A stretch of 54,952 bases of DNA from a virus (lineage: Duplodnaviria > Caudoviricetes): positions 1 through 54,952 of IMG/VR virus record IMGVR_UViG_3300031269_000018; one strand, written 5' to 3'. Below are positions 8,357-30,733 of the stretch, piece by piece. A program made the position numbers and the translations under genes. Position 1 is the first letter of the stretch. Each line of letters starts with the position of its first letter. Below the pieces are notes generated by a model. The model was not told the origin of the DNA. It did no database searches and worked only from the letters and a program-made list of their open reading frames with translations.

Positions 8357-8558
8357 TAGCCTGCCCTCCTATTAGCGGTTTAAATATTTTTCTTATTTCA
8401 GGATTTTTGCTGTATTGTAAATCAAAATCAACCCTATTTTTAAACTCGTACCTTACTACTTCTTTTGTATGAGGATTTTTAGATTCGTAAATCTTAGGCC
8501 ATAAATCAAAACCCCCAAGCGTCTGTTCTTGTACCTTCAAATTTAAAAAATATGCCAT
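8349..8558 (-). CDS. Hypothetical protein (start revised to MAYFLNLKV, 69 aa)
   Basis: ATG at 8558 overlaps upstream TGA, GGAG RBS. Confidence 0.6.
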   Translation of the reverse strand: MAYFLNLKVQEQTLGGFDLWPKIYESKNPHTKEVVRYEFKNRVDFDLQYSKNPEIRKIFKPLIGGQAND

Positions 8559-9022: not shown

Positions 9023-9057
9023 TTTATTCTCCAGTGTCCGTTGTTATCTATTGCATT

Positions 9058-9429: not shown

Positions 9430-9430
9430 T

Positions 9431-10372: not shown

Positions 10373-10374
10373 CT

Positions 10375-11615: not shown

Positions 11616-11626
11616 GATAACCTCTA

Positions 11627-12130: not shown

Positions 12131-12167
12131 TTTTCATCTCCTTTGTTGTCTTGCCAGTAATGATAAC

Positions 12168-13748: not shown

Positions 13749-13763
13749 AATTTAAACCTCTTT

Positions 13764-14039
13764 TTAACCAGCTATAAATGAAGCAACAACAACACCGCGT
13801 TCTTTACTTATTGCCTTTCCGAGCAGAGTCACTTTTAAAGTACCTACCTGAGTTAGTGATATCCAAGATTCAAGGATATAATACGTATCTGTAGTGATAG
13901 AATCCGTATCTTCAGGGACTATGCTTTTGGTGGAAGGGTGTATGTTTCTTGCGTCATCCTCACTTGTTGCAGCTACAACTGCCGATTTATACTGGTCATA
14001 ATCAATCGTATCGGTACGTTCTATTAAATATAAATTCAA
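13764..14039 (-). CDS. Conserved phage hypothetical protein
   Basis: 91 aa, YD.Y.SAVVAA.SEDDAR.IHP pattern; overlaps upstream stop. Confidence 0.7.
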   Translation of the reverse strand: MNLYLIERTDTIDYDQYKSAVVAATSEDDARNIHPSTKSIVPEDTDSITTDTYYILESWISLTQVGTLKVTLLGKAISKERGVVVASFIAG

Positions 14040-14383
14040 AATCTAAACCTCTTCTTTATAATGTGTTCGACTCGTGCGACATCCTCTTTTGAATTTGCTA
14101 CCTGGCCTATCGCACCTGAAGCAACTATGGACGCTATATTAAGTGTTTGAAGTCCATGAAGCTCGCCATGTGGTTTCTTTGACTCAATGCCGACAAACAT
14201 GCCAAAAGTCTCCCCAACCATATCTTGAGTGATTGTCACCGGGACGCTCGCAATATGATCAGGAATTCCTTTCGTGCCATAACCTGCAAACGGCATTATC
14301 TGGTATACATCGTCAGATAAGCCGCCTAGCATTTTCTTGACTGCTTTTTTGGTTTCGCCTTCAAGTGGTTCTTTAACTCCCAT
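14036..14383 (-). CDS. VRR-NUC-like (PD-(D/E)XK) nuclease
   Basis: GIPD...FVGIESK...LQ motif; typical partner of SNF2 helicase in phages. Confidence 0.75.
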   Translation of the reverse strand: MGVKEPLEGETKKAVKKMLGGLSDDVYQIMPFAGYGTKGIPDHIASVPVTITQDMVGETFGMFVGIESKKPHGELHGLQTLNIASIVASGAIGQVANSKEDVARVEHIIKKRFRF

Positions 14384-14558
14384 GTAGCGATTGGTTCCAG
14401 TAGCCTACAACTAAATGAGCGTTTCCAAACATAGGCAAGACCTCAGATCGGTTTTTTACTGGTAACGATGATACACGCCACCAGTTATTTATAAGTACGA
14501 TGTGAGGCTTTCCAGTGACTTTAGGAGTAATCGTTATGTTGCTTGTATATCTACGCAT
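14373..14558 (-). CDS. Hypothetical protein
   Basis: 61 aa, overlaps both neighbours by a few nt. Confidence 0.55.
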   Translation of the reverse strand: MRRYTSNITITPKVTGKPHIVLINNWWRVSSLPVKNRSEVLPMFGNAHLVVGYWNQSLHGS

Positions 14559-15105
14559 GGATCCGCTTCCTGCATTCTGCTAACTGCGCTATCTGAGCGT
14601 GACAGTCAGCCAAGGCATTGTGAACAACAGTGCCTTTTGGAACACCGCACTCTTTCATTAGCGTTCTAAGCTCACGTTTGTTCCGAAATGACCAAGGTAG
14701 TTGCATTGGGTGTTTACTAGATGCAATTAAATTTTCGAGTAGTTTAAAATCAAAGTCACCTTTTGACCACCAGGCTTCGATGTTGTACTTCTGTGTGAAA
14801 AAAGTACTGGCAAGAAATGAGTGAAAATAATCGAGATCCATCACACTCGGATCGTTTAACGATCGTTGCAAATTATCTGGTATGTTTAAATGGAATGTCA
14901 ATGTGCTTTCAGAGATCGTTCGACCTGCATTTATCTGCTCTTGGATCTCTAGGTTTATCTGCCGCGAAAAAATAGGTGTGTGGTCTGCATCAAACAGCAC
15001 AACAGCTACTTGAAATATAACTGCGGTTTCGGTTGTATCAAGTGTTTCGATATCAACCATTGCTTCACAGGCCATAATGTCTTTACTTAATTCAGTCATA
15101 TCCAT
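14551..15105 (-). CDS. DEDDh 3'-5' exonuclease
   Basis: VDIETL, GDFD, HNALADC motifs. Confidence 0.85.
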   Translation of the reverse strand: MDMTELSKDIMACEAMVDIETLDTTETAVIFQVAVVLFDADHTPIFSRQINLEIQEQINAGRTISESTLTFHLNIPDNLQRSLNDPSVMDLDYFHSFLASTFFTQKYNIEAWWSKGDFDFKLLENLIASSKHPMQLPWSFRNKRELRTLMKECGVPKGTVVHNALADCHAQIAQLAECRKRIHA

Positions 15106-15131
15106 TTTATTCTCCAGTTAGTTGAACGTAA

Positions 15132-15161
15132 ACAATAGTCGTACTTAACAAAGATGTCAAG
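15132..15161 (-). promoter_or_regulatory. sigma70 promoter overlapped by 18-bp palindromic operator
   Basis: TTGACA-17-TATTGT on minus; CTTAACAAAGATGTCAAG at 15144-15161. Confidence 0.75.
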
Positions 15162-15867
15162 TACTTTTATGCTCGCATTGATCTTCTCTTGCTTCGCACC
15201 ATCCGCAAAGATGATTCGGTTTTGCAGGCCAGTTCCCCGACTCATTGCACATTTGAATTAACTCTTGGCGATCACCAAAGTCTTGCCATATTGCCTCCAT
15301 GTCTTTACGAGAATATTCAGCGTAAGTAGGTGATGTGTTTTCGTGCTCGCACCATACATAAGCAGTCAGAACTCGATTGACTTTTTTATATTTTGAAAGA
15401 ACCGCACCTGCAAACAATTTAAGCTGGTCGCTATGCTGTTTTACTTTTCCAGTCTTCCAGTCAATGACCAATGCAAAGTCACCGACTATAATAAGCGCAT
15501 CAAGTACGACTCTACACCACGCTTTTTTATCGAACCAACTGACCTCATGCATGCGGATATCAAATGTCACCTGGAGTTCAGGTAGCACTGTATTTGCTTT
15601 GCGCATCTTATCGAGCAGCGGCATCAAGAAGTCCAGTTTTACAGAGAACGTTTCAGGTCCGTTTATTTCAGGCACTGGGAATGGGATCTTTGTACCATCG
15701 CGCAAGTAGTCCTCTAATACTTTATGCACCGCCTTACCTTTTTTAAAGTGAGCAGCTTCAAAGTTAGGTTTTGGAAATACTTTGCCAACGTTATTTCCCC
15801 AAAAACGCTTAGGGCATTGCTCAAACATACTCAGTCGGCTCCAACTCCATGCTATCGGTTTACTCAT
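15157..15867 (-). CDS. PD-(D/E)XK Cas4/RecB-like exonuclease
   Basis: WSWSRL..F..CP, LD..VIDWKTGK, QL, C-terminal CGWC...C. Confidence 0.85.
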   Translation of the reverse strand: MSKPIAWSWSRLSMFEQCPKRFWGNNVGKVFPKPNFEAAHFKKGKAVHKVLEDYLRDGTKIPFPVPEINGPETFSVKLDFLMPLLDKMRKANTVLPELQVTFDIRMHEVSWFDKKAWCRVVLDALIIVGDFALVIDWKTGKVKQHSDQLKLFAGAVLSKYKKVNRVLTAYVWCEHENTSPTYAEYSRKDMEAIWQDFGDRQELIQMCNESGNWPAKPNHLCGWCEAREDQCEHKST

Positions 15868-15897
15868 TTTTACTCTCCAGGGTTATTTTCATAAATG

Positions 15898-16071
15898 TTA
15901 ATCCTTAATTTTCAGGCCCATGCGTACCATTTTTTGTATTACATGTAACTTTTTACGCTTTGGAAATTCAAGTGCAATTAGATCCGTTTTCATTCCTGAT
16001 TGACGAAGTTTAAATAGTTTTTTGGTGTCTTCGTCTGACCAGTTTGTTTGTCCTCTTCTACTTCTCAGCAT
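15898..16071 (-). CDS. Small Myb/GcrA-like HTH protein, 57 aa (missing from ORF track)
   Basis: MLRSRRGQTNWSDEDTKKLFKLRQSGMKTDLIALEF...; TAATG coupling to MTase stop; fills the gap. Confidence 0.7.
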   Translation of the reverse strand: MLRSRRGQTNWSDEDTKKLFKLRQSGMKTDLIALEFPKRKKLHVIQKMVRMGLKIKD

Positions 16072-18116
16072 TATAATTTCCTAAAGTCGACGTAAGTGTC
16101 TCGGATGTTCTGATTAAGTCCCCATGGTGTGAATATGTAAACGCAACATGCAAACTTAGGTCCTTGCGGCTTGCCGTCTTTATCGACAAACCCAGAACCG
16201 TCAGGCCGCAGAAACTTCATTCTATAGGGCATATGGATCACAGTGTCAGCAAGTGCTCTCGCATTGCGTGTATAATCTGTCTCAGGTTTATCAGGCACAA
16301 GCAACGCTGTTAGGCTGCACCCTTTCATCGCCTCCTTAGCAGCTTTTAAAACCCACGGCTTTATATCGCTGTATGGAGGGTTGCAGAAATTTGCTGTCGG
16401 AGACCATGGCAATTTAAAAGCATCCTCACTTCGTTCCGCTAGTGAATAGTACTCACCGCATTTAGCTGTTCTCTTTAGCGCACAGACATCCAATCTAAAT
16501 GAGATACGCAAGTACTTTTCAAGTGCTTTTACGAACTCAGGCGGTGTCTGAGCGAGATCTTTTTCTTCTTCCGGTGTATTGCTGTTGTTGTTTTCCAATT
16601 GCGGCTCCTTGTATTGGTCTATGTTTGGGATCTGATTGAAAATGTGAGCGATAACGTCAATAGTCCAACCGTTACCAAACATTTTATATAATTGCGAGTT
16701 GCTTATACCGGCGCTTAACAACGTGTCTAAAATGTCCTCTGGTATTGTTTGAAGTCTGCCGCATTCGCGGGGTGTTAGTTTGCGGTAGTGAATGTTTTTA
16801 AGGCATTCGCTTTTTATAGAAAGTTTATTGTTATGTTCCCAACTATTTGCGCTTAATGTAGGGGTTTTACCGTCTAGCGCCTTTTCACCTCCTTTATTAA
16901 AACCTCGAGGTGTTTGTTGTATTGATACTTTAGATTCTTCTATTAATAAATTCCCAGCTCCAGCAGTGCCCCCAGATTGAGATGATAAAGCTATCGACTT
17001 TCCAAATTTTGAATAAACCCTATTACCTTGACCCCCGCCTTTAAATTCATGCACTCTTATTGGCGCGTTACTCGAATTATCTATTGATACTTTAGGCTCT
17101 AAGTTGCCCCCTGTTGCCGCTGCTAATGTTGGTGCTTTACCATTCGGTGAATAAATACGTTTATTGTAATCATGCCCTTTAATGTCTGATGCAGTGGCTA
17201 CTCTTTGTATAACAAAATTGTCTTTTTGAACCGTTGTAAGTGAGTTTGTTTTATCGTCTTTCCTAACTTCAAATTGCTGTTGTATTTTACCGTTATCGTT
17301 ATATCTTCCGCGTTGTGCTACGCATTTAACCTCTAAATAATTATATGGAACGCCTTTGTGCATGTTAGCAGTGAGACAAAATGATTTTTCTTTATCTTCT
17401 GATTGGGTACATCTATCAGCCCTACGCGCACCGGCTTGTTGCCACTTTTCATTGCCTTGTTGCATGTAATTAATTGCGCTATCAGTGTGAAAAAAAGAAC
17501 TTTCAACCTCACTTTCAAGAATGTCTTTTAACACAATTCCCTTATCTTTCGGTTGCTCAACGCCCCAATTACACCAGTAATAACGCTGCCTGTTTTGTGC
17601 GCTAACTAATGCGCTGTTGATAAAGACAGGCTCTACACCGATTGCATTACTAATTAAGTCCAAAAAGTCTTTTTTCATCTTCACGTTTTCAAGGAAGAAC
17701 CTAATGTTAGGGTTGACTAACTTGATATGGTCTAGCAATAAAATATATTCCCAAAACAGATAAGACTGACTTAAAAACTCTGCACCTGCTAATTTCAACT
17801 CAAGGTACTTTTCTCTGCTATCAACAACTATTTTTTCACCGTTTAGTATTGCAGCAGTGCCAGCCATTTTTCCGGCCATTGAGAAACCCTGGCACGGTGA
17901 ACCACCAATGAATAAATCAATCGTTGACCAGTTAATTAACCATTTGCGCCACTTAGTTATATTGCCCATTTGTATGGTTTTAGGGAATACCGCTATAGTT
18001 CCTTGTATAGCGTACTTATTAATCTCACTTGCATAGTATTTAGCGGGTTTTATCCCCATTACTTTTAATGCGGTTTGGCCGCCTGAATGACCGTCGAACG
18101 CTGCAAACACATTCAT
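16071..18116 (-). CDS. Fused DNA methyltransferase: C5-cytosine MTase with expanded variable region + C-terminal phage Dam-type N6-adenine MTase
   Basis: FDG, GSPCQGFS, ENV, QNRQRYYW, RKLTPREC, GNGW (C5); QTP, LDVCA, NPPY (phage Dam). Confidence 0.9.
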   Translation of the reverse strand: MNVFAAFDGHSGGQTALKVMGIKPAKYYASEINKYAIQGTIAVFPKTIQMGNITKWRKWLINWSTIDLFIGGSPCQGFSMAGKMAGTAAILNGEKIVVDSREKYLELKLAGAEFLSQSYLFWEYILLLDHIKLVNPNIRFFLENVKMKKDFLDLISNAIGVEPVFINSALVSAQNRQRYYWCNWGVEQPKDKGIVLKDILESEVESSFFHTDSAINYMQQGNEKWQQAGARRADRCTQSEDKEKSFCLTANMHKGVPYNYLEVKCVAQRGRYNDNGKIQQQFEVRKDDKTNSLTTVQKDNFVIQRVATASDIKGHDYNKRIYSPNGKAPTLAAATGGNLEPKVSIDNSSNAPIRVHEFKGGGQGNRVYSKFGKSIALSSQSGGTAGAGNLLIEESKVSIQQTPRGFNKGGEKALDGKTPTLSANSWEHNNKLSIKSECLKNIHYRKLTPRECGRLQTIPEDILDTLLSAGISNSQLYKMFGNGWTIDVIAHIFNQIPNIDQYKEPQLENNNSNTPEEEKDLAQTPPEFVKALEKYLRISFRLDVCALKRTAKCGEYYSLAERSEDAFKLPWSPTANFCNPPYSDIKPWVLKAAKEAMKGCSLTALLVPDKPETDYTRNARALADTVIHMPYRMKFLRPDGSGFVDKDGKPQGPKFACCVYIFTPWGLNQNIRDTYVDFRKL

Positions 18117-18119
18117 GGA

Positions 18120-20006
18120 TCATAGCTCCTTTAATTCTGACCAACGAGAACCTACTTGCACATCCCATGTTAGCGGTACAGTTGGTGTATAGCCCCACCA
18201 TTTGCCGTAATCCATTTTGTTAAGCATTTCACGGCACTCAATAAGACGTGAGTTTGGGACGTCGTTTTTTACTTCGTAGTGTAATCCGTCATGTAAATCA
18301 AACCAAAACTCAAACTCTGGAAAGTATTTTCCGATTTCTTGTATTGCTAAGTCTTTCATATCAGCGCCACTGCCTTGGATCGGAAAGTTTATAGCTGATG
18401 ATTCAGTCGACCATTTACTTTCTTTATCCCAAAAATCTAATTTATAGCGACGACCTGCCATTGATTCGGCATAGCCTGTTAGTTTGCCTTTGTTTATAGC
18501 ACTCGTCCAGTATGGCTTAATTTTCTTAAAGCCTCTGTGAAACGTATTTTGCCAGCTTGCGGCCGTCATAAAATCAACGTTCATTCCGTATTGAACCCGC
18601 GCTTGAACCCGCAACTTTTTTACGCCAATTCGATAGTTATTTGCTAGATTTGTGAATTTGCCTTGGTAGCGATAACCATGATCCCCGGTAATAGCAGTGT
18701 TTCCTTCTTTCTTTCCTTTCATGAAATCGTCGTAATGGATCCCTGATATCTCAGAGCCAGTGAACGAGTGAAAATCTTTTCCCATTACAAATATCTCAGT
18801 CATATTCTCATCGCCTGAGTAGTCTGCTATCAATCGAGACTCTTGACCCGCTGCATCGTACTCTACGTGCTTGTATCCCGGTCTGGGGCGTATCAATGCG
18901 CGAAACTCTTTTTGTCTTGGCCATTGATGTAATGCCATACCAATTGAGTATTTTTTCTTGATCTTGCTTGTGTATGTCATCCTACCGGTATAAGTGGAGA
19001 ATATTCTGGCTTGCGGGTGCAGTACTTCACTGCCAAGGTACTCTCGAGATTTTAAAGGTGATTGAATGTACTTTGTAAGTTGAGTATTTAATTGGCGCCA
19101 TCTTAGGATCTCAATAACATGGTCATCATCATCTGCAAGATAGGTCAACGCCGCTTTATCGGTGCTCGGTGCTTTGGTTTTTTCACTGAAACTTTTAGGT
19201 GTCAGCTTCCATACATCGTAGAGTAGGTTTGCCATTTGTTTCGGGCTGCGCAGTATTTTACTGGGGATCCAACCATTCACGCCAAGTCGAACTACTTTTG
19301 ACTGCTGATGATTATGCACGCCCAGTTTGTATTCGATGGTAGCCATCTCTTCTGTGATCGCAGGGGTGATATCATCAATAAGCGAGAAGTCTACCATTAC
19401 ACCGCGCTCGTATGACTCTGCAACTGGTATCAAGCTTGCCATTGAGATCATACATGATTTCTGCTGTTGAGGCGTGAGGCGTGAGTATGCAACGGTAGCG
19501 ACTCGTGCTGTCATAATGGCGTCAAGCTTTGCTCTGGTTTCCCAGTACTTGCCTTGAGCGCCTGCATGCACTTCTTGCTCTTTCATTTTTACAAACGCAA
19601 CCGCCCAAGGCTCGTCTTTGAAAAAGTACTTCACCGCATCTGCTAGTGACCAGGCAGGGCGTCGTTCTTTTCGCTGTGAGTTTGAAAGCCATTTCCAAAT
19701 AATCCCGGCGTCGACCCACTTTATTTTCTTCACTTCTTCTACATAACCAGCCGCAATTAAAAATGAAATGTCAAACGTGAGGTTATAGCCAGTGAGTGTC
19801 TGACCTTCTAAGCTTCTTAGTAACGCCCGGTACTGTGTCTTCTTTTGTACAACAAACGCTTCTCCGGATGCTTTTCCAACCGCTATATTCGTGATCATGG
19901 CAGTGCCTTCCCGTACTCTCCATGGTTGCAGTGCATATTCTTGAGGGGCATCTCCAGTAGGTGCTGTCTCAATATCCAATGCAGGGATATCTAGTTTGTT
20001 TGACAT
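18120..20006 (-). CDS. polA: Family A DNA polymerase with 3'-5' exonuclease
   Basis: LDIET, YNLTFD, TGR, DAAGQESR (A), RYQGKFTNLANNY (B), NFPIQGSGAD, LHDG (C). Confidence 0.92.
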   Translation of the reverse strand: MSNKLDIPALDIETAPTGDAPQEYALQPWRVREGTAMITNIAVGKASGEAFVVQKKTQYRALLRSLEGQTLTGYNLTFDISFLIAAGYVEEVKKIKWVDAGIIWKWLSNSQRKERRPAWSLADAVKYFFKDEPWAVAFVKMKEQEVHAGAQGKYWETRAKLDAIMTARVATVAYSRLTPQQQKSCMISMASLIPVAESYERGVMVDFSLIDDITPAITEEMATIEYKLGVHNHQQSKVVRLGVNGWIPSKILRSPKQMANLLYDVWKLTPKSFSEKTKAPSTDKAALTYLADDDDHVIEILRWRQLNTQLTKYIQSPLKSREYLGSEVLHPQARIFSTYTGRMTYTSKIKKKYSIGMALHQWPRQKEFRALIRPRPGYKHVEYDAAGQESRLIADYSGDENMTEIFVMGKDFHSFTGSEISGIHYDDFMKGKKEGNTAITGDHGYRYQGKFTNLANNYRIGVKKLRVQARVQYGMNVDFMTAASWQNTFHRGFKKIKPYWTSAINKGKLTGYAESMAGRRYKLDFWDKESKWSTESSAINFPIQGSGADMKDLAIQEIGKYFPEFEFWFDLHDGLHYEVKNDVPNSRLIECREMLNKMDYGKWWGYTPTVPLTWDVQVGSRWSELKEL

Positions 20007-20009
20007 GGT

Positions 20010-22376
20010 TTATTTGACCTCTTTAAGTTGGGGTGGTGCTACCTCTTTTTTTAATAACATGCATTCTGAGCGTGTCAGCTCATGACGTATTGCTTCTGGA
20101 TTACTTTCAATCCAAGCTTTGTGATTTCTAACGCTTCTTGGTCTGTGTCTCCACCTCACTCCTTTGCCGTCGGTTCTTAGTTGACCATCGTATGCTTTGT
20201 TTGAAAGACGTGTCATAACCTCAATCACTTCTTGCTTTATCGCGTTGTTCAATGGCGTTTCAGAATGCTCAGCAACAAAATTCGTGACCAGTACATTGCT
20301 TGTTATATCAGCGCCGAATGGACCGTCTCGAGCATCAATTGCATCAGCGATCAACCCTTCTAAGTACGAACGACTGTTCTCAATTAAGTCGGCTTTGGAC
20401 TTCGTTTGAGGAGGCGGTTTATTGTATGCAAACTGAGTTAGATCACGCTGAGCGCACCACGCTAATATATGAGATAAATTATCACCCTTGCGCTGCCACT
20501 CCCAAATTTCGTGGTAATACTTAGCGTCAAGAACACCGTCAATTCTATGCACCCAAAAACGACGATCTCCACCTCTTATTTGCGCAGCATCTTCGTTGTT
20601 CGAGAACAAGATCACATTGCAAAATATTTGCTCTGACTGCTCCTTTTTTCCTTTTGTGTTTATTTCTATGTGAGATTCAGAAATAATATGATTTAGTTTT
20701 TCAACAACACCGCCTCTGAGGTCTTTGTGCATTTCATCAATGCAAACTAATGTTTTGTTTTGCAAAAATGAGTTGAACTGATTGGTTAGACGTTCAGGCA
20801 AGATCATAATGGCATTCTGCTTTCCAACTAACTTGACCATCAATTCATAGATCCAGCCTTTTCCTGCACCTGGGTCTGATATAAGCAGAGGAACCCAAGG
20901 GATCCTTCGCTCTGGGTGTATAATTGTACAAGCAAACCAATCCATAAATAAGAACCGATCATCGTCATTCGGAAATAGGAATTCCATATGTGCTAAAAAA
21001 GGTTTTATCTTACCAACATCAATTTCGGGCGCTGGGACTATCTGGGCTGCTTTATATAAGTTCCAATAATCTGAGTCTTCGAGATTTACTATGGCTTCTT
21101 TGCCCGGATAGTAAATGGTGTCGCGAACACTTTTTCTGTTATGACATTCGAGCCACTTTTTACTGAGAAAAGCTTTTCCCCCAACTTTAATGTTTTGAGT
21201 CGCGTTTTTCCAGTCTTGGAGCGAGTACATACTGTGTTCTCCGCTGAGTTTGGTATCAATAACTCTCGATCCTTCGTCAACGTAGCGAAATCGTTCGATC
21301 CATGCATCGAGTGTATTCTCACCACCTGATATATCTTCATAGATCACCTCCTCAGCTTTAGTGCCTTTGTTGATAACAGACTCAATTGTTGTATCGGCAG
21401 TGATGGGTGGCGGTGGTGGCGGTGCATTTGCAATTTTTTCTTCTTGTGCTTCTTGTTCGCGCTGGTCGCAAAATTTATCAACGCAACCTAGTACTTCATA
21501 TTCGAGGGTGGCTTCGTCAATTGGCTCTGCATCGGATGGGCATAGATCCACATTCATACGAATTATCTCAGCTTTGATAGCCGCAGCACTGTAGCCATCT
21601 GATACCATCTTGCCTATGTGAGCCACCAGCAACGGTGTTCTGTTGCCCGGCGCTAATACAACTGGCTCTTGATAGCTGTCGGATATGTCTAACCCAAACG
21701 CATCGGCTTCCATCGCTCTGGCTGTCATTTTTCTAGGTTTTGCGGATATGGCATGATGAGTAGGTATTGCTTTTGCAGCACAATCGTATAAATGTTGTGT
21801 TGCGTAGTCACCACCAAACGCTTGCACTGTAACCATAACAGGTTCTTTTTTCTGATGTGGAAAACCTGGGACTCTCAACACTCTGTCTAAATTATTTACA
21901 TGAGGGTCCGTATTGAACTGTATAGCGAGTTGTTTTTGCATTGATTTAAACTGATCGAGCTCACAATCAACCACTCGCCAGTACACATGGAATTTGCCTT
22001 TGCTCGACGTTACGATCATTGAGGGTCTTGGCATGTAGTCAATCAATGATTTCATTGTCTCTACGGAAGTGTCAGGTTTGTCAGCGTCAACAAACAATGC
22101 ACGTATGCCAGTAATTGCATTTAATGAGCGTTTCAACCCTTCGTTTATTTGTACAAATACACCGGCGCCTCTTTCTGACAGTGATTTGAGTGTGTCTTCA
22201 TGCTCATCAAATGATCCTATTAATACTCGTGCAAGTGGATCAATAGGTTTTCCTAAGGCATTTTTTTTAAACGTTGCTTTTAATTCTTTTTTGTCAGTAA
22301 ACGTCTGGAACACATATGGTCCGTCTCCCAGCTCGCGCAAAAACGCTGTGGCTTGAGAGAGATCATACATTCCCAT
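20010..22376 (-). CDS. Primase-helicase: RepB/AEP-type primase, helical PriCT-like linker, C-terminal P-loop helicase (DUF5906/SF3-like)
   Basis: FVDAD, SSKGKFHVYW, RVLRVPGFPHQK; PGAGKG Walker A, CIDE Walker B, FSN, DRRF. Confidence 0.88.
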   Translation of the reverse strand: MGMYDLSQATAFLRELGDGPYVFQTFTDKKELKATFKKNALGKPIDPLARVLIGSFDEHEDTLKSLSERGAGVFVQINEGLKRSLNAITGIRALFVDADKPDTSVETMKSLIDYMPRPSMIVTSSKGKFHVYWRVVDCELDQFKSMQKQLAIQFNTDPHVNNLDRVLRVPGFPHQKKEPVMVTVQAFGGDYATQHLYDCAAKAIPTHHAISAKPRKMTARAMEADAFGLDISDSYQEPVVLAPGNRTPLLVAHIGKMVSDGYSAAAIKAEIIRMNVDLCPSDAEPIDEATLEYEVLGCVDKFCDQREQEAQEEKIANAPPPPPPITADTTIESVINKGTKAEEVIYEDISGGENTLDAWIERFRYVDEGSRVIDTKLSGEHSMYSLQDWKNATQNIKVGGKAFLSKKWLECHNRKSVRDTIYYPGKEAIVNLEDSDYWNLYKAAQIVPAPEIDVGKIKPFLAHMEFLFPNDDDRFLFMDWFACTIIHPERRIPWVPLLISDPGAGKGWIYELMVKLVGKQNAIMILPERLTNQFNSFLQNKTLVCIDEMHKDLRGGVVEKLNHIISESHIEINTKGKKEQSEQIFCNVILFSNNEDAAQIRGGDRRFWVHRIDGVLDAKYYHEIWEWQRKGDNLSHILAWCAQRDLTQFAYNKPPPQTKSKADLIENSRSYLEGLIADAIDARDGPFGADITSNVLVTNFVAEHSETPLNNAIKQEVIEVMTRLSNKAYDGQLRTDGKGVRWRHRPRSVRNHKAWIESNPEAIRHELTRSECMLLKKEVAPPQLKEVK

Positions 22377-22578
22377 TTTTCTCCATGTAATCGGCTAAGA
22401 TAGTGTCAACGACAGAAGAGCGATTGATTGATTTGTTTTTTGGAAATTTGAGGCGTAACGAATCAGCGTATCTTGATAGCCATTCATCTGTGCTTTCTTT
22501 AATAGTAAAGGAACACACTTTTTTGTTGTCGCGTTTAATGCCTTGGTTCAAAGCTTCGGCTGAGAGAATTCGTGCCAT
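22363..22578 (-). CDS. Ribbon-helix-helix-type transcriptional regulator
   Basis: KKVCSFTI strand, helix, NRSSVVDTIL helix; first gene of replication operon. Confidence 0.65.
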   Translation of the reverse strand: MARILSAEALNQGIKRDNKKVCSFTIKESTDEWLSRYADSLRLKFPKNKSINRSSVVDTILADYMEKNGNV

Positions 22579-22610
22579 TGGGTGTTGCCTTTGGATGTAT
22601 TAGGTTGTGT

Positions 22611-22640
22611 AATATGATACATCTTAATTGCATTGTCAAC
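22611..22640 (-). promoter_or_regulatory. sigma70-like promoter of RHH/replication operon
   Basis: TTGACA-17-CATATT on minus. Confidence 0.55.
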
Positions 22641-22748
22641 CGACTTTATAAATGTATATTTAAAAATACAGTCTTGACAATTTATTTATTTAGGCAGGTA
22701 TAAAGTTGAGGTCACCGGAAGTGCGGTAGTTTCGATAGAGTGGGGATG

Positions 22749-22790
22749 AAAAAACCCCATAAAAGGAACTAACTTGGTCTTTTATGGGGG
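22749..22790 (-). terminator. Intrinsic terminator ending putative sRNA
   Basis: CCCCATAAAAG...CTTTTATGGGG stem followed by T6 on minus. Confidence 0.8.
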
Positions 22791-22821
22791 AACCACAACA
22801 ACACTGACACTGGAGATGTCA
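22749..22821 (-). ncRNA. Putative ~70-nt small RNA carrying anti-RBS sequence UCUCCAG
   Basis: Bounded by near-consensus promoter and intrinsic terminator, no ORF; 11-nt perfect complement to leader of ORF 8558-9022. Confidence 0.6.
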
Positions 22822-22826
22822 CTGCC

Positions 22827-22855
22827 TTTATAATCATTTTTATACTTGATGTCAA
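22827..22855 (-). promoter_or_regulatory. Strong sigma70 promoter for putative sRNA
   Basis: TTGACA-17-TATAAA on minus. Confidence 0.8.
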
Positions 22856-22911
22856 TAGACAACACAGACTTGAATTCAATAGGTCTTATTGTGTCATTGG
22901 ATTGTGGATAC

Positions 22912-22934
22912 AAAAAAGCCCCGGTTAAGGGGCT
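22912..22934 (-). terminator. Intrinsic terminator ending early accessory operon
   Basis: AGCCCC-TTAACC-GGGGCT followed by T-run on minus. Confidence 0.85.
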
Positions 22935-22961
22935 GTCGTGTTGTATTTTTATGTTGTTATT

Positions 22962-23141
22962 TCATGGCAATCTCCTTTTATTTTTGGCATCCTCCCGATC
23001 AATCGAGGTCTTTATTTTATACGCTATATATCCACATGGCAGCGCAATCAGGATCGCGGTTGACACTGCTAGACTCAAAACAATACAGGCAAACATTGTG
23101 ATGGTCAATACGGCAACCAAGGCCAGTTTGTAGTACCTCAT
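22962..23141 (-). CDS. Small membrane protein, 59 aa (missing from ORF track)
   Basis: MRYYKLALVAVLTITMFACIVLSLAVSTAILIALPCGYIAYKIK...; ATGA coupling; ends just before terminator. Confidence 0.7.
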   Translation of the reverse strand: MRYYKLALVAVLTITMFACIVLSLAVSTAILIALPCGYIAYKIKTSIDREDAKNKRRLP

Positions 23142-23410
23142 GCTTGCACCGTTACGTTATAGTCGATAACTACATTTGATACTTCAATGATTAGTTCTTT
23201 GGAAGGTACATACCATACCGCGCCCGTATTAATGTTAAGTATCTCTATGAATTGTGCTGGCCTTTTTGCTATTGACACACTGACATGTACTTTCATGTGC
23301 AAACCGCCTTCACGTTCAAATACATCTCCGACTTTTATGTCTCCAACCGTTAATTTCTTTGGCGAAGGTAGTTTATTGCGCACTATTTTAAAGTTTTTAT
23401 CTTTGCTCAT
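23138..23410 (-). CDS. Hypothetical protein
   Basis: 90 aa, ATGA coupling, GAGG RBS. Confidence 0.7.
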   Translation of the reverse strand: MSKDKNFKIVRNKLPSPKKLTVGDIKVGDVFEREGGLHMKVHVSVSIAKRPAQFIEILNINTGAVWYVPSKELIIEVSNVVIDYNVTVQA

Positions 23411-23634
23411 GATTCTGTCCTCATGTGATATGTGTCTAAGTTAATTGGATGAACGGGGATCATGCCTTGGCTAAACTTTCGTGCATGATATTTCGCCGCG
23501 TCCTTGCTGTGTTGAGTTACCTCACCTTTGCGAATATCCTTTATTTCGCAACGATCTTTCACATCTTGTTTTACAATCGTGACCACTTGACCACAAATCA
23601 TTTGCTCTTGAATTGATATAAACGGCTTTTCCAT
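23407..23634 (-). CDS. Hypothetical protein
   Basis: 75 aa; preceded by hairpin-RBS element. Confidence 0.7.
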   Translation of the reverse strand: MEKPFISIQEQMICGQVVTIVKQDVKDRCEIKDIRKGEVTQHSKDAAKYHARKFSQGMIPVHPINLDTYHMRTES

Positions 23635-23705
23635 ATAATTTCCTTACTTGGTTGCTTGCGGATTATTCCGGCATTAACCACTCGTATATAATGGCTAATA
23701 ACAGA
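23635..23705 (-). repeat. Early hairpin-RBS element, copy A
   Basis: TCTG-T-TATTAGCCATT-loop-AGTGGTTAATG-C-CGGAATAATCCG...AAGTAAGGAAATTAT-ATG. Confidence 0.85.
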
Positions 23706-24209
23706 TCAGTCTTGGTTTGCCTCTACACCACTACTTGTGCCTTTTGAAGTCCATACCATTGATAGAGCATACCCTTTCTTGCATGTTGCTAACCATTGGC
23801 TATATGTTGCTGTCATACTTCCATACGCCGATGCATCGTTATCTGTAAGCCACTGAGCTAATTTCTCCACAGTGTCAAATGCCGGGCTTATTGGTGTACC
23901 TTCTGTACAGTCTTCATACATTCGCATCTGAGTTTTTTCATTTTCATCCCACTTGGGCATATAATCCGACTCGACTGGTTTACCTCCTGAGTACTTTTTG
24001 AAACTGATGTTTTCATATTCTTCAAGCTTTGGCTCCCATTCAATATTTTCTTCGTAACTTTTTGTATATCCTTCAAACCATTTTTTTCTTTCTAGTTCCC
24101 ACTGCTGCCTTTCAGCTTTAAAATCACGGTTTAAAAGTGGTATGTATTCACCTGAAGCATCCAAAGGGTGCTCCCAGTTCTCTGGTACGTTTCTTATTTC
24201 TCTACCCAT
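23706..24209 (-). CDS. Conserved phage hypothetical protein
   Basis: MGREIR.VP..WEHP...YE...EGTPISP.F pattern; flanked by repeat copies A and B. Confidence 0.8.
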   Translation of the reverse strand: MGREIRNVPENWEHPLDASGEYIPLLNRDFKAERQQWELERKKWFEGYTKSYEENIEWEPKLEEYENISFKKYSGGKPVESDYMPKWDENEKTQMRMYEDCTEGTPISPAFDTVEKLAQWLTDNDASAYGSMTATYSQWLATCKKGYALSMVWTSKGTSSGVEANQD

Positions 24210-25674: not shown

Positions 25675-26040
25675 CTAGTACTCCAGTAAATTAGGTATGT
25701 CGCCTATAAGTTCAAAATAAAATGTATATGTGCATAACCACAAGCGCAAATCACCTTCTTTCCATTTATTCATTTGATGATTATTTGCTGCCTGGCCTGT
25801 TTTATCTTCATACACTACAACTTCAACCCTGTTGACCTCATCTTCAAGATAATAAGGATTAACGATAATGTCGTTTTTATCGCACCCGGTTAAATCTGCA
25901 ATTTCAATTTTTATATCTTCTAAAGTCGCGGCAATGATTTCAAATTTTATTTTGTGTTCAAACCTTCCCATTATACAACCATCTTCAAAGCGATCTTCTT
26001 CCGAAAACTTACAAACGGATTTACATATTAATTTTTTCAT
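25675..26040 (-). CDS. Hypothetical protein
   Basis: 121 aa, ATGA coupling. Confidence 0.7.
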   Translation of the reverse strand: MKKLICKSVCKFSEEDRFEDGCIMGRFEHKIKFEIIAATLEDIKIEIADLTGCDKNDIIVNPYYLEDEVNRVEVVVYEDKTGQAANNHQMNKWKEGDLRLWLCTYTFYFELIGDIPNLLEY

Positions 26041-26859: not shown

Positions 26860-27092
26860 TATTTACGATCCTCTGTTAGAATTTGAACCGGGCCTTTGTC
26901 TTTGTAGCTCCAGATAAAAGGGATCTCATAACTCAGGTCCCCGGTTACCTGGTCGATAAATGTGATCACATTACACTTGAATTCGTAATTTTTTATGATC
27001 TCGGTTGTCTCCGGTGTCACTTTTATATAAATATCACTGCACCAATTTGACAGCGGCAAGCCTGTAGCTATTAGTTGATCAAGTATTTTCAT
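26859..27092 (-). CDS. Hypothetical protein (start revised to MKILDQLIA)
   Basis: ATGA overlap with upstream stop at 27089-27092, GAGG RBS. Confidence 0.65.
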   Translation of the reverse strand: MKILDQLIATGLPLSNWCSDIYIKVTPETTEIIKNYEFKCNVITFIDQVTGDLSYEIPFIWSYKDKGPVQILTEDRK

Positions 27093-27532
27093 ATTGAAAC
27101 CCTCTTTTGTAAGTGAATGAAGAAACCAAAAACGCGTGAAGCGTTTGCAGGCTTTGCATATTTTGTTATCTTTGCCCAAGTGTATAAAAGTTCAAGCTCT
27201 GACTGTTCAAGCTGATTAGGATCTTTATTAAAGTCAATATGCATACTTAAAACACCCTTGGCCATTGCGCGGGTGGGCTTGGTTGGGTACTGTATTTTTC
27301 CGTGTGTGTTATGCGCGTCAATATCTAAACGAGCGCAGCACTCGCGGCTTGTGCCACATTCAAGGTTGCATTGACACGTTTTTGATCCATCTTCTTCAAT
27401 AAAATATAGATCAACCGTTTGCCACTCGTAATGATTGCCCGCTTTATAAAAGATATTAGAGCCACTGTGCGCTAATGTTTCATTTGATAGATCGATATCA
27501 AGTTTTAAAATTTTAGGTGTTATACGTTTCAT
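27089..27532 (-). CDS. Hypothetical protein
   Basis: 147 aa; preceded by divergent hairpin-RBS element. Confidence 0.7.
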   Translation of the reverse strand: MKRITPKILKLDIDLSNETLAHSGSNIFYKAGNHYEWQTVDLYFIEEDGSKTCQCNLECGTSRECCARLDIDAHNTHGKIQYPTKPTRAMAKGVLSMHIDFNKDPNQLEQSELELLYTWAKITKYAKPANASRVFGFFIHLQKRVSI

Positions 27533-27600: not shown

Positions 27601-28986
27601 CTATATAAGCGCGATTTGTCCGGGCTTGGCGGTTTCTGGCATTTCGTGCACTTTACTGTCAGTTAAAAACACCGCTTTATAGTCGTAATCTGCCCGGCCA
27701 TATTTATCAACGCCCATTTTAACGAATCCGATCCGGATCCTAAACGTCTTGCATTTTGATAATATGGTGCTCTTGTGGTCGTTTCCGATCCCTTTGTACT
27801 GCTCTTTTGTAAGCTCTACTTGGTCAAGCTCTCGCGCTCTGTAGCCGCCTTGCCAGGTAACAGGTTGATCAGTCTTAAAGTTTAAGATAGGGATCGCAGC
27901 CTTAGCACTGGGGGCGCGTTTTGCTGGTACTTCATAACCAACTGACTGCATGAGCTCGCGCCATTCTTGATCGTCCAGCTCAAGATCACAACTGCTCGAT
28001 AAGTGAAGCGGCAAGCAAACCGAACTAGTGACGGTCCAGGCTTCGTTTTTTAACTCTGCTTTTGGTTTATCTGCGCCGTGGGCCCTCAAGAATGTTTGCA
28101 GCACTGCCGGAGTCAATGCACCGTCATACAATGGCACAATGGCAAGCTGTCCTTGCTCGTATGCTAAGCGGTTTAGAATATGGTTGATTATCCTTGCCCG
28201 TCTTTTGCTATTAATGCGTGCCGTGTAGATTTCCCGCAGTTTCTCAAGTGCTTGGTCTTCTGTGATCTCTCCTGACTCGATTTTATTATTAAGATCCAGG
28301 TTTCTAGTTTCATACTGGCCGCATAAGTTGTATGTGTAAGTCGTCTTTGATTCTGGCTTCATTTTGTTTTTGACGATATCGATTACATTCAAAGAATGCG
28401 CGGCGTCGTTGATCGCTCGTTGTTGATCGCGTAGGTCTTTAGATAGCGTCTTGATCCTGTTTGAGATGGTGCGCGTGTTGTTCTTGTGGTCTGCATGACC
28501 GATCACGCCTTTCGCCCTCCATACCCAATACCCCACGGCATCGGCTGTGTTGTGTGCGTTATCAATGGCACGCTCGATCTGTTTCTCTGTTTTCTTTGCT
28601 TTGCGTTCTGAATGATGGCCGCTTAAGATTGGTTGATTGTTGCCGATCCGCTGCATCAAGTCATTTGCTGCTAACTGGTAACCATGGCATTGATCCGATC
28701 TCTTTTGAGCCAAGAGAAGCAACCGATCCGCTTTTGCCTCTGCGCGTTCAACCATTGTTAAACCCTCGGGCATAATATCGCCAGCAAGAGCAAGACAAAA
28801 ATCCTCGTTATCAAGTGACCAGTAAGCGACGAACAGCTTTTGAACTGGCGCCCACTTCCACCCGCTTGACTTCAATGCGGACCAGTCTTCGGAGTCAATG
28901 CGGACCTCAGTGTAAATCCTTAGCTTATTGTCTTCGGGTGAATAAGTCGCGCTAAAATCTTCAGCGTTGTACTTGTCAATATTCAT
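27601..28986 (-). CDS. DUF3560-family protein (plasmid leading-region type)
   Basis: ATYSPEDNKLR..WKWAP.Q.LFVA N-terminus and QPILSGHHSERKA motif. Confidence 0.8.
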   Translation of the reverse strand: MNIDKYNAEDFSATYSPEDNKLRIYTEVRIDSEDWSALKSSGWKWAPVQKLFVAYWSLDNEDFCLALAGDIMPEGLTMVERAEAKADRLLLLAQKRSDQCHGYQLAANDLMQRIGNNQPILSGHHSERKAKKTEKQIERAIDNAHNTADAVGYWVWRAKGVIGHADHKNNTRTISNRIKTLSKDLRDQQRAINDAAHSLNVIDIVKNKMKPESKTTYTYNLCGQYETRNLDLNNKIESGEITEDQALEKLREIYTARINSKRRARIINHILNRLAYEQGQLAIVPLYDGALTPAVLQTFLRAHGADKPKAELKNEAWTVTSSVCLPLHLSSSCDLELDDQEWRELMQSVGYEVPAKRAPSAKAAIPILNFKTDQPVTWQGGYRARELDQVELTKEQYKGIGNDHKSTILSKCKTFRIRIGFVKMGVDKYGRADYDYKAVFLTDSKVHEMPETAKPGQIALI

Positions 28987-29061: not shown

Positions 29062-29155
29062 GCCCTAATAAAAACGCCAGTATAAAAAGAAGCCCTAACA
29101 CGTTAAACGCGATCACAAGGCCGATCAATAGTACTTTGATTAAACGCTGCATCAT
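29057..29155 (-). CDS. 32-aa single-TM hydrophobic peptide (missing from ORF track)
   Basis: MMQRLIKVLLIGLVIAFNVLGLLFILAFLLGQ; TAATG coupling, GGAG RBS; stop inside copy F. Confidence 0.65.
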   Translation of the reverse strand: MMQRLIKVLLIGLVIAFNVLGLLFILAFLLGQ

Positions 29156-29355
29156 TATGTGTTGCTCCAATCGTTGATATTGAAATCAGTGTCATAATGA
29201 TACGCATCAAGAAAAGCGCTCACATCATCAATGGTATACGCTTCAATCTCGCAATATGTCTGCGCCTGATCAATAACGCATTCGACTGGATAACCTGCGA
29301 TACGTAAATAATTGTTATAGTGTTGGTCTAACTGCTGGATCTCTTGTTCTCTCAT
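29155..29355 (-). CDS. Small acidic hypothetical protein
   Basis: 66 aa, TAAGGAAATT RBS. Confidence 0.65.
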   Translation of the reverse strand: MREQEIQQLDQHYNNYLRIAGYPVECVIDQAQTYCEIEAYTIDDVSAFLDAYHYDTDFNINDWSNT

Positions 29356-29385
29356 GGTCTTAATTTCCTTAAAACGTTGTTGTTG

Positions 29386-29619
29386 TTAGTATGTCTTTAC
29401 GACTTTAAAAGCTAGGTTTAGATCGCAACCGTCCCAATCACAGGATGTCATTTCACCATCAATACGAGCAAATACAACAAACTCGGCTATATCATCAGGC
29501 AAGTCGTCATTGCTACAACTAAAAGTAAAGTCATTGCAAATCGTATTTACTACACTGAATTTAATGACAGCGAAGTACAGAACACCGTTATATTGTATTT
29601 CTAAGTCGTTTATAATCAT
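29386..29619 (-). CDS. Small acidic hypothetical protein; first early gene
   Basis: 77 aa directly downstream of early promoter. Confidence 0.65.
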   Translation of the reverse strand: MIINDLEIQYNGVLYFAVIKFSVVNTICNDFTFSCSNDDLPDDIAEFVVFARIDGEMTSCDWDGCDLNLAFKVVKTY

Positions 29620-29708
29620 TTGTGTGATCTCTCTGTTTAGTTGCTAAGTCGCTAAGTATTTATTCAAGTCGTAACGCGGTGGCTGATGCTCTTGATTGCT
29701 TAATTCCT

Positions 29709-29737
29709 AACTTAACAAAGATGTTAAGATAAATCAA
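29709..29737 (-). promoter_or_regulatory. Early promoter with palindromic operator
   Basis: TTGATT-17-TAAGTT with extended TG; CTTAACA-AAGA-TGTTAAG at 29711-29728. Confidence 0.65.
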
Positions 29738-29928
29738 GTAAATCGGCACACCTATTTGTAATTAGAGGGATGAGTCAAGGCTGAGTCAAGAAATAGCAGG
29801 GCTACAGGGTGCGCGGTTGCTGGGTTTCTTTGTTCCGTTGGCTCGGTGCGGCACAGGTCAGGAGGGTGAGACGGTTTCCTTGATCTTAGTATCTGCGTGG
29901 CTTGTAGCTCTGTTACTTAACATTATTG

Positions 29929-30010
29929 TATATATATATATATATATATAGTGTATGTATTATGTATATATGGTGGCTGTGGTGGCTGTGGCTGTGGCTG
30001 TGTGTGTGTG
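29929..30010. repeat. Microsatellite block: (TA)11, GGCTGT-type repeats, (TG)n
   Basis: Directly visible low-complexity tract in non-coding region. Confidence 0.9.
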
Positions 30011-30115
30011 GTCACCAAAGCTGGAACATGGTGAGTCAGTGAGTTAAATGGCTACAGACCACGCCAGGTAAGGGTTAGAGCGGTTCAGGGGGGGTAAGTC
30101 GGTAATCTTGGATTT

Positions 30116-30184
30116 GTACAATAAACGTACATTAGTCAACCTTTTTTCTAATTTGCATTGACAGCAGTACAAAATACGTACGAT
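30116..30184. promoter_or_regulatory. Back-to-back TTGAC boxes each followed by GTAC-N7-GTAC
   Basis: GTACAATAAACGTAC 30116-30130 and GTACAAAATACGTAC 30167-30181, each 3 nt from a TTGAC(A/T). Confidence 0.5.
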
Positions 30185-30244
30185 TTACTTCTTCAAGGGG
30201 TATTTCAAGGTCACCAGTTACTTGAACAAGTCAGATCATGGCTA

Positions 30245-30530
30245 CCTACTGACTACAAAGTCACTCGGACACTAAGCCTCTACCCTTGGCCGACAGCGCA
30301 GAAATTAAGCCAGCCTTGACCGTCAAGTCATGAAGCGACGCCAACACATAGTTACCTGTCAACTTACTTTAAGGTGTGCCGAGTGAGTCAGTACTGAAGG
30401 ATCGCAGACACGACAACGCTTTGTAAGCTGGCTCAGGGCCTAAGAGGGTGAGTCAGTAGCAAGATCGTCGTTATTTTGCTGCTTCCTTACTTCGATCCTT
30501 CGCTGCTACATAAAAACGCGGTAGCAAATC
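30245..30530 (+). ncRNA. Candidate structured RNA or ssDNA element upstream of terminase genes
   Basis: Several nested complementary segments found by eye; no ORF. Confidence 0.35.
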
Positions 30531-30685
30531 ACGCTTAGAAAAAAGATTTCCAGTACCTTTTTGCTTTTCCGTTTTAGGATCTCGGTTTCTGAGAGCTGCG
30601 ATCGCCAGGCGGGGGTTTAGTCTATATTATATATACATACAGTAAGCTTACACACAGAACCAAAAAAATAAAAAACCCAAGGTAC

Positions 30686-30714
30686 TTGACTGCTATTACG
30701 AAAGCTATTAAATT
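30686..30714 (+). promoter_or_regulatory. Possible promoter of packaging/late operon
   Basis: TTGACT-17-TAAATT just upstream of terS candidate. Confidence 0.45.
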
Positions 30715-30733
30715 ACATCTATTTAATTAAGCG

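What the first reader, a model, noticed from the sequence alone, without database searches (positions are those of the whole stretch)
22749..22855. Stand-alone ~70-nt sRNA antisense to the phage's own ribosome-binding sites
Seen: between the early-operon terminator (22912-22934) and the replication promoter is a TTGACA-17-TATAAA promoter and a second terminator enclosing no ORF. The predicted RNA begins GACAUCUCCAGUGUCAGUGUUGUUG, with UCUCCAG in the loop of a short GACA/UGUC stem. UCUCCAGUGUC pairs perfectly (11 nt) with GACACUGGAGA in the leader of ORF 8558-9022 (9028-9038), and GUUGUU pairs with the adjacent AACAAC. The exonuclease (15105) and Cas4-like (15867) leaders also use CUGGAGA. Inference: a trans-acting phage sRNA silences a subset of its own middle genes, and possibly host mRNAs.
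Basis: partly seen in the sequence, partly recalled or inferred. Interest (0 to 1): 0.8.

Follow-up and report, generated by a model that had tools for sequence, protein, structure and literature searches.

The report
Orphan small-RNA gene candidate in phage
A salt-lake phage carries a promoter and a terminator that enclose about 70 bases and no gene, so it probably makes a small RNA; that RNA could pair with the ribosome-binding site of one of the phage's own genes, but nothing yet shows that it is made or that it acts.

Summary
On the minus strand a TTGACA-17-TATAAA promoter (22855-22827) is followed by a 5' hairpin with a CUCCA loop, a U-rich linker and an 11-bp terminator with six T (22789-22749). 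No credible ORF lies inside.

Chance is unlikely for the promoter. A match of 11 of 12 or better arose in 74 of 20,000 simulated 150-nt stretches. This terminator and its neighbour are the only two clean ones in the 22-kb leftward gene block.

Pairing with the leader of ORF 8558-9022 is longer than reported: 20 pairs with one 2-nt bulge. It is the best site of 4,372 genome windows by cofold energy, and 0 of 154 control RNAs reached it. The margin over the next site is only about 2 kcal/mol.

The other CUGGAGA leaders pair no better than chance, so silencing of a subset of genes is not supported.

I found no RNA data and no Rfam match. The unit has no counterpart in 4 related phage records. A natural strain differs at two bases inside the target site.

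Verdict: a plausible, lineage-specific phage sRNA gene whose function is unproven. It would be a new member of a known kind.

The parts
22912..22934 (-). Intrinsic terminator t1 that ends the early leftward operon (6-bp G+C stem, 6-nt loop, T-run)
   Evidence: lies 28 nt after the stop of ORF 22962-23141
22868..22881 (-). Upstream copy of a 14-nt near-palindromic repeat (possible regulator site)
   Evidence: two exact copies 24 nt apart; no other copy with 0-1 mismatch in the window
22844..22857 (-). Second copy of the 14-nt repeat, overlapping the -35 hexamer
22827..22855 (-). Sigma-70-type promoter TTGACA-17-TATAAA (11 of 12)
   Evidence: chance estimate (74 of 20,000 in 150 nt)
22749..22820 (-). 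Predicted non-coding RNA of about 70 nt (start inferred 7 nt after the -10; end in the T-run)
   Evidence: not shown by any RNA data
22805..22821 (-). 5' hairpin, 6-bp stem with loop CUCCA (anti-Shine-Dalgarno-like)
22795..22816 (-). Stretch predicted to pair with the target (RNA nt 5-15 and 18-26; nt 16-17 bulged)
22749..22789 (-). Intrinsic terminator t2: 11-bp stem, 13-nt loop, six T
   Evidence: inverted repeat I4, 100% complementary
9028..9047 (-). Predicted target: 20 nt of the leader of ORF 8558-9022, covering the GGAG at 9029-9032; the start codon is at 9020-9022
   Evidence: natural variants at 9038 and 9040
22611..22639 (-). Separate promoter (TTGACA-17-CATATT) of the small ORF 22363-22578 and the primase operon; not part of the RNA but bounds the unit
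   Evidence: TTGACA at -61 to -63 from the start codon in the window and in 3 of 5 relatives

Best explanation
The unit is an independent, lineage-specific small-RNA gene, built like a moron: its own promoter, a payload and its own terminator. It sits between the early-operon terminator and the promoter of the replication operon.

Host sigma-70 RNA polymerase would make an RNA of about 70 nt. That RNA has a 5' hairpin with a CUCCA loop, a U-rich single-stranded linker and a terminator hairpin with a U tail.

The most likely action is antisense pairing in trans. The loop would start contact with the GGAG of the leader of ORF 8558-9022, 13.8 kb downstream in the leftward gene block. The hairpin would then open and a 20-pair duplex with a 2-nt bulge would cover positions -25 to -6 of that mRNA. 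This would block ribosome binding.

Shown here: the sequence features and their improbability. Inferred: the transcript, the pairing in vivo, and repression.
For: - Promoter: 11 of 12, one of only 4 such sites on both strands of the window. Chance is 74 of 20,000 in 150 nt.
- Terminators: t1 and t2 are the only two clean hairpin-plus-T-run terminators on the minus strand within the leftward block 7174-29500.
- A uniform scan for a promoter followed by a terminator found this unit. The only other hit was a weak one inside coding sequence.
- No credible ORF.
- The replication operon has its own, positionally conserved promoter, so the unit is an extra. In relative L002 the terminator abuts that promoter directly.
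- Pairing: 20 pairs, 2 of them G-U, with a cofold gain of -23.9 kcal/mol. The next-best leader gives -15.6.
- Controls: 0 of 77 shuffled and 0 of 77 genomic control heads reached -23.9 (means -15.0 and -13.3). With duplexfold, 6 of 300 shuffles and 2 of 700 genomic windows reached the observed value.
- It is the best site of 4,372 genome windows on both strands.
[quoted passage not shown] Regulation of Gene Expression', read).
Against: - The -10 lacks the conserved final T.
- The genome-wide margin is small: the next sites are -22.0 and -21.5.
- With duplexfold, three coding-region sites score better than the leader: -31.9, -30.8 and -29.2 against -29.0.
- An anti-SD-like loop biases any such RNA towards ribosome-binding sites.
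- Nothing like the unit was found in 4 related virus records. No analogous unit was found in 3 complete relatives.
- A co-occurring strain about 4% divergent differs at 9038 and 9040, inside the target. One change breaks a G-C pair and the other leaves a G-U pair. That is 2 differences in 20 nt, so the site looks no more conserved than its surroundings.
- The target protein has no known function, so there is no biological rationale.
Confidence: 0.3

Rival explanations
1. The short RNA is a terminated leader. The promoter fires constitutively, transcription stops at t2, and a phage factor (a Q-like or other antiterminator, perhaps bound at the two 14-nt repeats at the -35) lets polymerase read on into the replication operon. 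This is the layout of lambda PR'-6S RNA-tR'. The RNA itself could be a by-product, or could also act in trans.
For: - The unit lies directly upstream of the next temporal gene block.
- Two exact 14-nt repeats sit at and just before the -35.
- Lambda 6S RNA is such a terminated transcript. It is read through with Q and NusA, and it is also Hfq-bound with a few targets (10.1101/2024.10.31.621285, passages found).
- Many 5'UTR-derived short RNAs were mapped in virulent Pseudomonas phages (PMC10914365, passages found).
Against: - The operon has its own promoter 110 nt after t2, at a position conserved in the window and in 3 of 5 relatives.
- None of the early proteins I scanned hit an antiterminator family. 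They were the eight from 22962-23141 to 25675-26040 plus 27089-27532, 27601-28986 and 29155-29355. The remaining early ORFs were not scanned.
- Only about 30 nt precede the terminator, and no alternative antiterminator fold appears.
Confidence: 0.2
2. The RNA is real but its partners are not the phage's own leaders. It may act on host mRNAs, or titrate a host RNA chaperone or a host sRNA.
For: - The build is that of chaperone-dependent sRNAs: a U-rich linker and a terminator with a U tail. The feature list is recalled.
Against: The host is unknown, so nothing could be tested. The best phage site is stronger than all 154 controls.
Confidence: 0.2
3. There is no RNA function. t2 is a back-up terminator for early transcription and the promoter match is fortuitous or vestigial.
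For: - Two terminators lie in tandem 140 nt apart.
- The -10 lacks the final T.
- The unit is absent from all relatives examined.
- The region shows local duplications.
Against: The promoter has a chance of 0.4-1%. The pairing result would then be a second coincidence with p of about 0.01-0.05.
Confidence: 0.15
4. The spacer is a DNA-level control region, a replication origin or a regulator landing pad beside the primase operon. Its repeats are protein-binding sites, and its promoter serves to activate the origin rather than to make a regulator.
For: - 3 of the window's 14 GTGTTGT heptamers lie within 22798-22944.
- There are two 14-nt near-palindromes.
- An A+T-rich tract at about 22650-22700 lies just before the primase operon.
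Against: - There are only two or three repeat copies.
- GC skew follows the coding strand and does not point to this place.
Confidence: 0.1

Closest known systems
c4 antisense RNA of phages P1 and P7
   Same: A small phage RNA whose exposed loops pair with sequences around the ribosome-binding site of a phage gene that it does not overlap, and so block translation (PMC12197685, section '7. Regulation of Gene Expression', read).
   Different: From recall: c4 is processed from the same transcript as its target, ant, and lies just upstream of it. Here the RNA has its own promoter and terminator, and the target is 13.8 kb away. There is no sequence likeness: 0 Rfam hits at gathering score.
VpdS of Vibrio phage VP882; PreS (LPR1) and LPR2 of lambda
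   Same: Stand-alone, phage-encoded, trans-acting sRNAs of about 60-100 nt with an intrinsic terminator. VpdS affects both phage and host mRNAs (PMC12197685, read; 10.1101/2024.10.31.621285, passages).
   Different: Those were shown by Northern blot and RIL-seq to exist and to bind Hfq, and they act mostly on host RNAs. Here nothing is shown experimentally and the host is unknown.
Lambda PR'-6S RNA-tR' module
   Same: A promoter followed by a short terminated transcript directly upstream of the next temporal class of genes. The 6S RNA also binds Hfq (10.1101/2024.10.31.621285, passages).
   Different: Lambda's late genes have no other promoter, and (from recall) the Q gene lies just upstream. 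Here the downstream operon keeps its own conserved promoter and no Q-family protein was found among those scanned.
Cis-antisense phage RNAs (lambda OOP, P22 sar, PAK_P4as15)
   Same: Small phage RNAs that repress phage genes by pairing (PMC12197685, read).
   Different: Those overlap their target on the opposite strand. Here no gene lies on the plus strand under the unit.

Membership tests
Any Rfam family | Score at or above the family's gathering threshold | tested here: not met
   0 matches in the whole window. In a permissive search of 22560-22970 the best E-values were 2.5-9.6, all far below gathering scores.
Stand-alone trans-acting bacterial or phage sRNA gene (general kind) | Own promoter and own intrinsic terminator enclosing no ORF | tested here: met
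   (prediction from sequence only)
Stand-alone trans-acting bacterial or phage sRNA gene (general kind) | The transcript is detected | not testable with these tools
   No RNA run was listed for this DNA; all 24 holders are DNA runs.
Stand-alone trans-acting bacterial or phage sRNA gene (general kind) | Seed conserved in relatives, or covarying with its target | tested here: inconclusive
   No relative carries the unit. One strain varies in the target, but its copy of the RNA locus was not shown.
Hfq-dependent sRNA | Intrinsic terminator with a U tail plus an upstream U-rich single strand (features recalled) | tested here: met
   Six U after the stem, and a U-rich linker at 22804-22790 that is unpaired in the fold
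Hfq-dependent sRNA | Binding to Hfq | not testable with these tools
   Host unknown
P1/P7 c4-type antisense RNA | Loop sequences complementary to the target's ribosome-binding region | tested here: met
   Loop CUCCA and the 3' arm pair with the target's GGAG region
P1/P7 c4-type antisense RNA | Encoded in and processed from the same operon, just upstream of its target (recalled) | tested here: not met
   The unit has its own promoter and terminator. The target lies 13.8 kb away, beyond other promoter-like sites such as 15160 and 12187.
Lambda-type Q antitermination module | Q-family gene upstream (recalled) | tested here: inconclusive
   0 antiterminator families among the early proteins scanned. 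Not all early ORFs were scanned, and most are orphans.
Lambda-type Q antitermination module | The downstream genes depend on this promoter alone (recalled) | tested here: not met
   A separate TTGACA-17-CATATT promoter lies at 22639-22611, positionally conserved in relatives.
Cis-antisense RNA (OOP or sar type) | Overlaps a gene on the opposite strand | tested here: not met
   Only family-less ORFs lie on the plus strand. All neighbouring genes are on the minus strand.

The most novel reading that the evidence does not exclude
A phage without its own RNA polymerase carries a moron-like sRNA gene whose anti-Shine-Dalgarno loop is tuned to the GGAGA-type ribosome-binding sites of its later leftward genes and not to the AAGGA-type sites of its early genes. 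The RNA locks one of those genes by a 20-pair duplex. This would be translational timing of a phage gene class by a dedicated trans-acting RNA that may have arisen from an inverted copy of the target's leader.
Probability: 0.1. Interest if true: 0.6.

Novelty: new member of a known kind. Interest (0 to 1): 0.36.

Why it matters
Few phage sRNAs have a demonstrated target, and almost all known ones come from temperate phages of model hosts (review PMC12197685). A clean, self-contained sRNA gene in an uncultured salt-lake phage, with a single strong predicted target in the phage's own genome, would be an easy test case for RNA-based timing of phage translation. The promoter, the terminators and the repression can all be assayed in a laboratory host from about 400 bp of synthetic DNA. 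If it fails those tests, it is a reminder that anti-SD-like complementarity found by eye is cheap.

Tried and rejected
Relatives:
- blastn of 22400-23200 against 50,697 phage records gave no match.
- An exact 19-mer search of IMG/VR gave 0.
- Primase-based searches gave only relatives at 29-44% amino-acid identity.
- The 90-aa neighbour gene found nothing in IMG/VR.
- Earlier scan notes hold no look-alike on other DNA.

RNA evidence:
- No RNA holder was listed.

Strain variation:
- One read-laying run on 8000-24000 with 4 DNA runs. Most differences were not printed (756 not shown).
- For X18, bins 19214-22417 have no cover, and the one listed piece near the unit ends at 22944. So I could not see the RNA locus of the variant strain.
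- One X11 contig, 22320-22828, is identical to the window.

Other identities rejected:
- tRNA or tmRNA: 0.
- Rfam.
- A small protein.
- Riboswitch or attenuator: too little RNA before the terminator, and no alternative fold.
- Pairing with the repeated hairpin-RBS elements of the early region: best values -12.6 and -12.4, within the null.

Target function:
- Pfam 0. One PHROG of unknown function. Atlas hits are below its own thresholds.

'RHH' label:
- The label for ORF 22363-22578 is not verified: 0 Pfam, 0 PHROG, and no convincing PDB sequence match.

Failed run:
I repeated it in smaller form.
- In one search I did not remove windows that are themselves antisense to a leader. Only its figure for a longest match of exactly 11 nt (210 of 15,692 windows) is usable.

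Supplements:
- Supplementary files of papers were not opened. Table S7 of PMC10914365 and Table S1 of PMC12197685 list further phage sRNA candidates that I could not compare.

Full report
**What the window is.** The window is a whole IMG/VR virus record of 54,952 bp, rated 97% complete. Its first and last 163 nt are the same at 162 of 163 positions, so it closes on itself. It occurs in DNA runs labelled salt lake metagenome. Genes at 7174-29355 lie on the minus strand and the rest on the plus strand. The leftward block holds a primase-helicase, a DNA polymerase, a fused methyltransferase, a helicase, a PD-(D/E)XK nuclease and an exonuclease-like protein. I recognised no RNA polymerase among the proteins scanned, so host sigma-70 promoters are the expected signals.

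**The observation.** Reading the minus strand, the order is as follows.
- The stop of ORF 22962-23141.
- Terminator t1 at 22934-22912.
- Two exact 14-nt near-palindromes at 22881-22868 and 22857-22844.
- TTGACA at 22855-22850, a 17-nt spacer, and TATAAA at 22832-22827.
- An 11-bp stem with a 13-nt loop, then six T ending at 22749.
- About 110 nt further on, a separate promoter at 22639-22611 for ORF 22363-22578 and the primase.

The RNA from 22821 folds into a 6-bp hairpin with loop CUCCA, an unpaired U-rich linker and the terminator hairpin. The fold is -20.3 kcal/mol, z = -2.6, and 2 of 200 shuffles fold as well.

**Is the transcription unit more than chance?**
- Under one filter, only four promoter-like sites with 11 of 12 matches exist on both strands of the window. 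This is one of them.
- In Markov simulations with the spacer's own composition, a site that good appeared in 197 of 20,000 sequences of 383 nt and in 74 of 20,000 of 150 nt.
- Of all hairpin-plus-T-run candidates on the minus strand within the leftward block, t1 and t2 are the only clean ones. The others are irregular folds inside genes.
- A uniform scan asked for a promoter of at least 10 of 12, then a simple hairpin terminator 35-220 nt later. It returned this unit and one weak antisense hit inside coding sequence (27047-27167). It returned nothing in three complete related phages.
- Weak point: the -10 lacks the conserved last T.
- ORFs over the unit start with TTG upstream of the predicted start, have no Shine-Dalgarno and match no family.

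I conclude that a short transcript is probable, at about two in three. It is not shown.

**Is the unit separate from the replication operon?** The small ORF before the primase is conserved in five relatives (alignment A2). TTGACA lies 61 nt before its start in the window and 63 nt before it in L002, L009 and L011. One search printed -64 for L002 because I gave the start one base late. L012 and L003 have no exact hexamer. In L002 the early terminator abuts this promoter directly. In L009 and L011 the DNA just upstream of this promoter appears, on my reading, to hold a gene on the other strand; I did not confirm that ORF. So the window's lineage carries an extra insert of about 270 nt that holds the unit. 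This speaks for a self-contained gene and against a simple operon leader.

**The pairing.** The complementarity is longer than reported.
- RNA nt 5-15 pair with 9028-9038, and nt 18-26 pair with 9039-9047.
- That makes 20 pairs, 2 of them G-U, with a 2-nt bulge in the RNA. The duplex covers the GGAG and ends 6 nt before the AUG.
- By cofold, the gain over the separate folds is -23.9 kcal/mol. The next leader gives -15.6.
- None of 77 RNAs with a shuffled 5' part (mean best -15.0, lowest -21.6) reached that value. Neither did any of 77 with a random genomic 5' part (mean -13.3, lowest -20.5).
- With duplexfold, which ignores internal structure, 6 of 300 shuffles and 2 of 700 genomic windows reached the observed -29.0.

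Against it:
- With duplexfold, three sites inside genes score better: -31.9, -30.8 and -29.2. By cofold they fall to -16.3, -18.1 and -11.2.
- In a cofold scan of 4,372 windows on both strands, the two best windows both hold the 9028-9047 site (-24.7 and -23.9). The next are -22.0 and -21.5.
- An RNA with a CUCC loop is biased towards ribosome-binding sites.

Overall the pairing is unusual at roughly the 1% level. It is a lead, not a proof.

**The subset claim.** CTGGAGA occurs 7 times in the window, which is not more than chance: 22 of 100 shuffles have at least 7. Four of the seven lie just before start codons, and one is the complement of the RNA itself. The leaders of 15157-15867 and 14551-15105 give only -10.9 and -9.7 kcal/mol, ranks 14 and 20 of 67. 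That of 7743-7982 gives -15.6. These lie within the range of shuffled controls. The evidence therefore supports at most one target.

**Comparative and population evidence.**
- No Rfam family matches.
- No DNA match in phage records or by exact word in IMG/VR.
- No match in 4 related virus records. A 5-Mb genome bin that holds a relative gave only chance hits with E of 0.145 or more.
- Four DNA runs were laid on 8000-24000. A strain about 4% divergent (45 differences in 1,088 nt of one contig) reads A for C at 9038 and A for G at 9040 on the plus strand. It does so in X18 at depth 34.6 of 34.6, and in X5 as a minor form at 2.3 of 5.8. In the mRNA these are G to U, which breaks the pair with RNA nt 15, and C to U, which leaves a G-U pair with nt 19. 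So the target site is not visibly protected.
- The RNA locus of that strain was not shown in the output, so covariation stays untested.

**Mechanism and rivals.**
- Most likely (0.3): a trans-acting antisense RNA that blocks the ribosome-binding site of ORF 8558-9022. The protein's function is unknown.
- A terminated-leader reading like lambda 6S RNA (0.2). It fits the position before the next gene block and the repeats at the -35. It is weakened by the operon's own conserved promoter and by the lack of a recognisable antiterminator among the proteins scanned. The two readings are not exclusive, since lambda 6S RNA is both.
- A real sRNA with host targets (0.2). This cannot be examined without a host.
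- A back-up terminator with a fortuitous promoter (0.15).
- A DNA-level origin or regulator region (0.1). The 14-nt repeats, a cluster of 3 of the window's 14 GTGTTGT heptamers within 147 nt, and an A+T-rich tract point this way.

**Comparison with the known.** Phage sRNAs that pair in trans with phage or host mRNAs are established: c4, VpdS, PreS and 24B_1 (PMC12197685, two sections read; 10.1101/2024.10.31.621285, passages). This candidate works like them on paper, but it belongs to none by sequence or by the defining layout of c4 or of the lambda Q module. It is a new, unconfirmed member of a known kind. Interest is moderate: the anatomy is clean and easy to test, the statistical support for one target is suggestive, and there are no expression or conservation data.

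Noticed in passing
window 1-163 and 54790-54952: The first and last 163 nt are the same at 162 of 163 positions, although the record is classed as linear without end repeats. The genome closes on itself, and the 3'-open ORF 54116-54952 appears to run on into the giant ORF that ends at 7177 (the frame across the junction was not checked).
   Followed up: partly
window 22844-22857 and 22868-22881 (minus strand): Two exact copies of a 14-nt near-palindrome 24 nt apart, one over the -35 of the candidate promoter. No other copy with 0-1 mismatch exists in the window. This may be a binding site for a dimeric regulator.
   Followed up: partly
window 22798-22944: Three of the window's 14 GTGTTGT heptamers lie within 147 nt, two direct and one inverted. 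An 11-nt stretch of the predicted RNA is repeated, with one change, just upstream of the -35 (D3).
   Followed up: partly
window 22363-22578; L002 4768-4977; L009 1390-1590; L011 1544-1744; L012 4779-4991; L003 4805-4999: A small ORF always precedes the primase gene in this phage group. TTGACA lies 61-63 nt before its start in 4 of 6 genomes. The 'RHH' label is unverified: it has no Pfam, PHROG or PDB-sequence match.
   Followed up: partly
window 19214-22417: The divergent strain in run X18 covers the flanks at depths of about 30 but shows no cover over the primase and part of the polymerase. This may be a swapped replication module with a border near the spacer studied here.
   Followed up: no
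L002 4668-4693: In the related phage the early-operon terminator has the loop CCUCCUUC, the same letters as the anti-Shine-Dalgarno end of 16S rRNA (that motif is recalled). It abuts the primase-operon promoter.
   Followed up: no
Several later leftward genes use GGAG or GGAGA instead.
   Followed up: partly
window 29356-30733: About 1.4 kb at the strand switch has no ORF of 60 aa or more on the coding strands.
   Followed up: no
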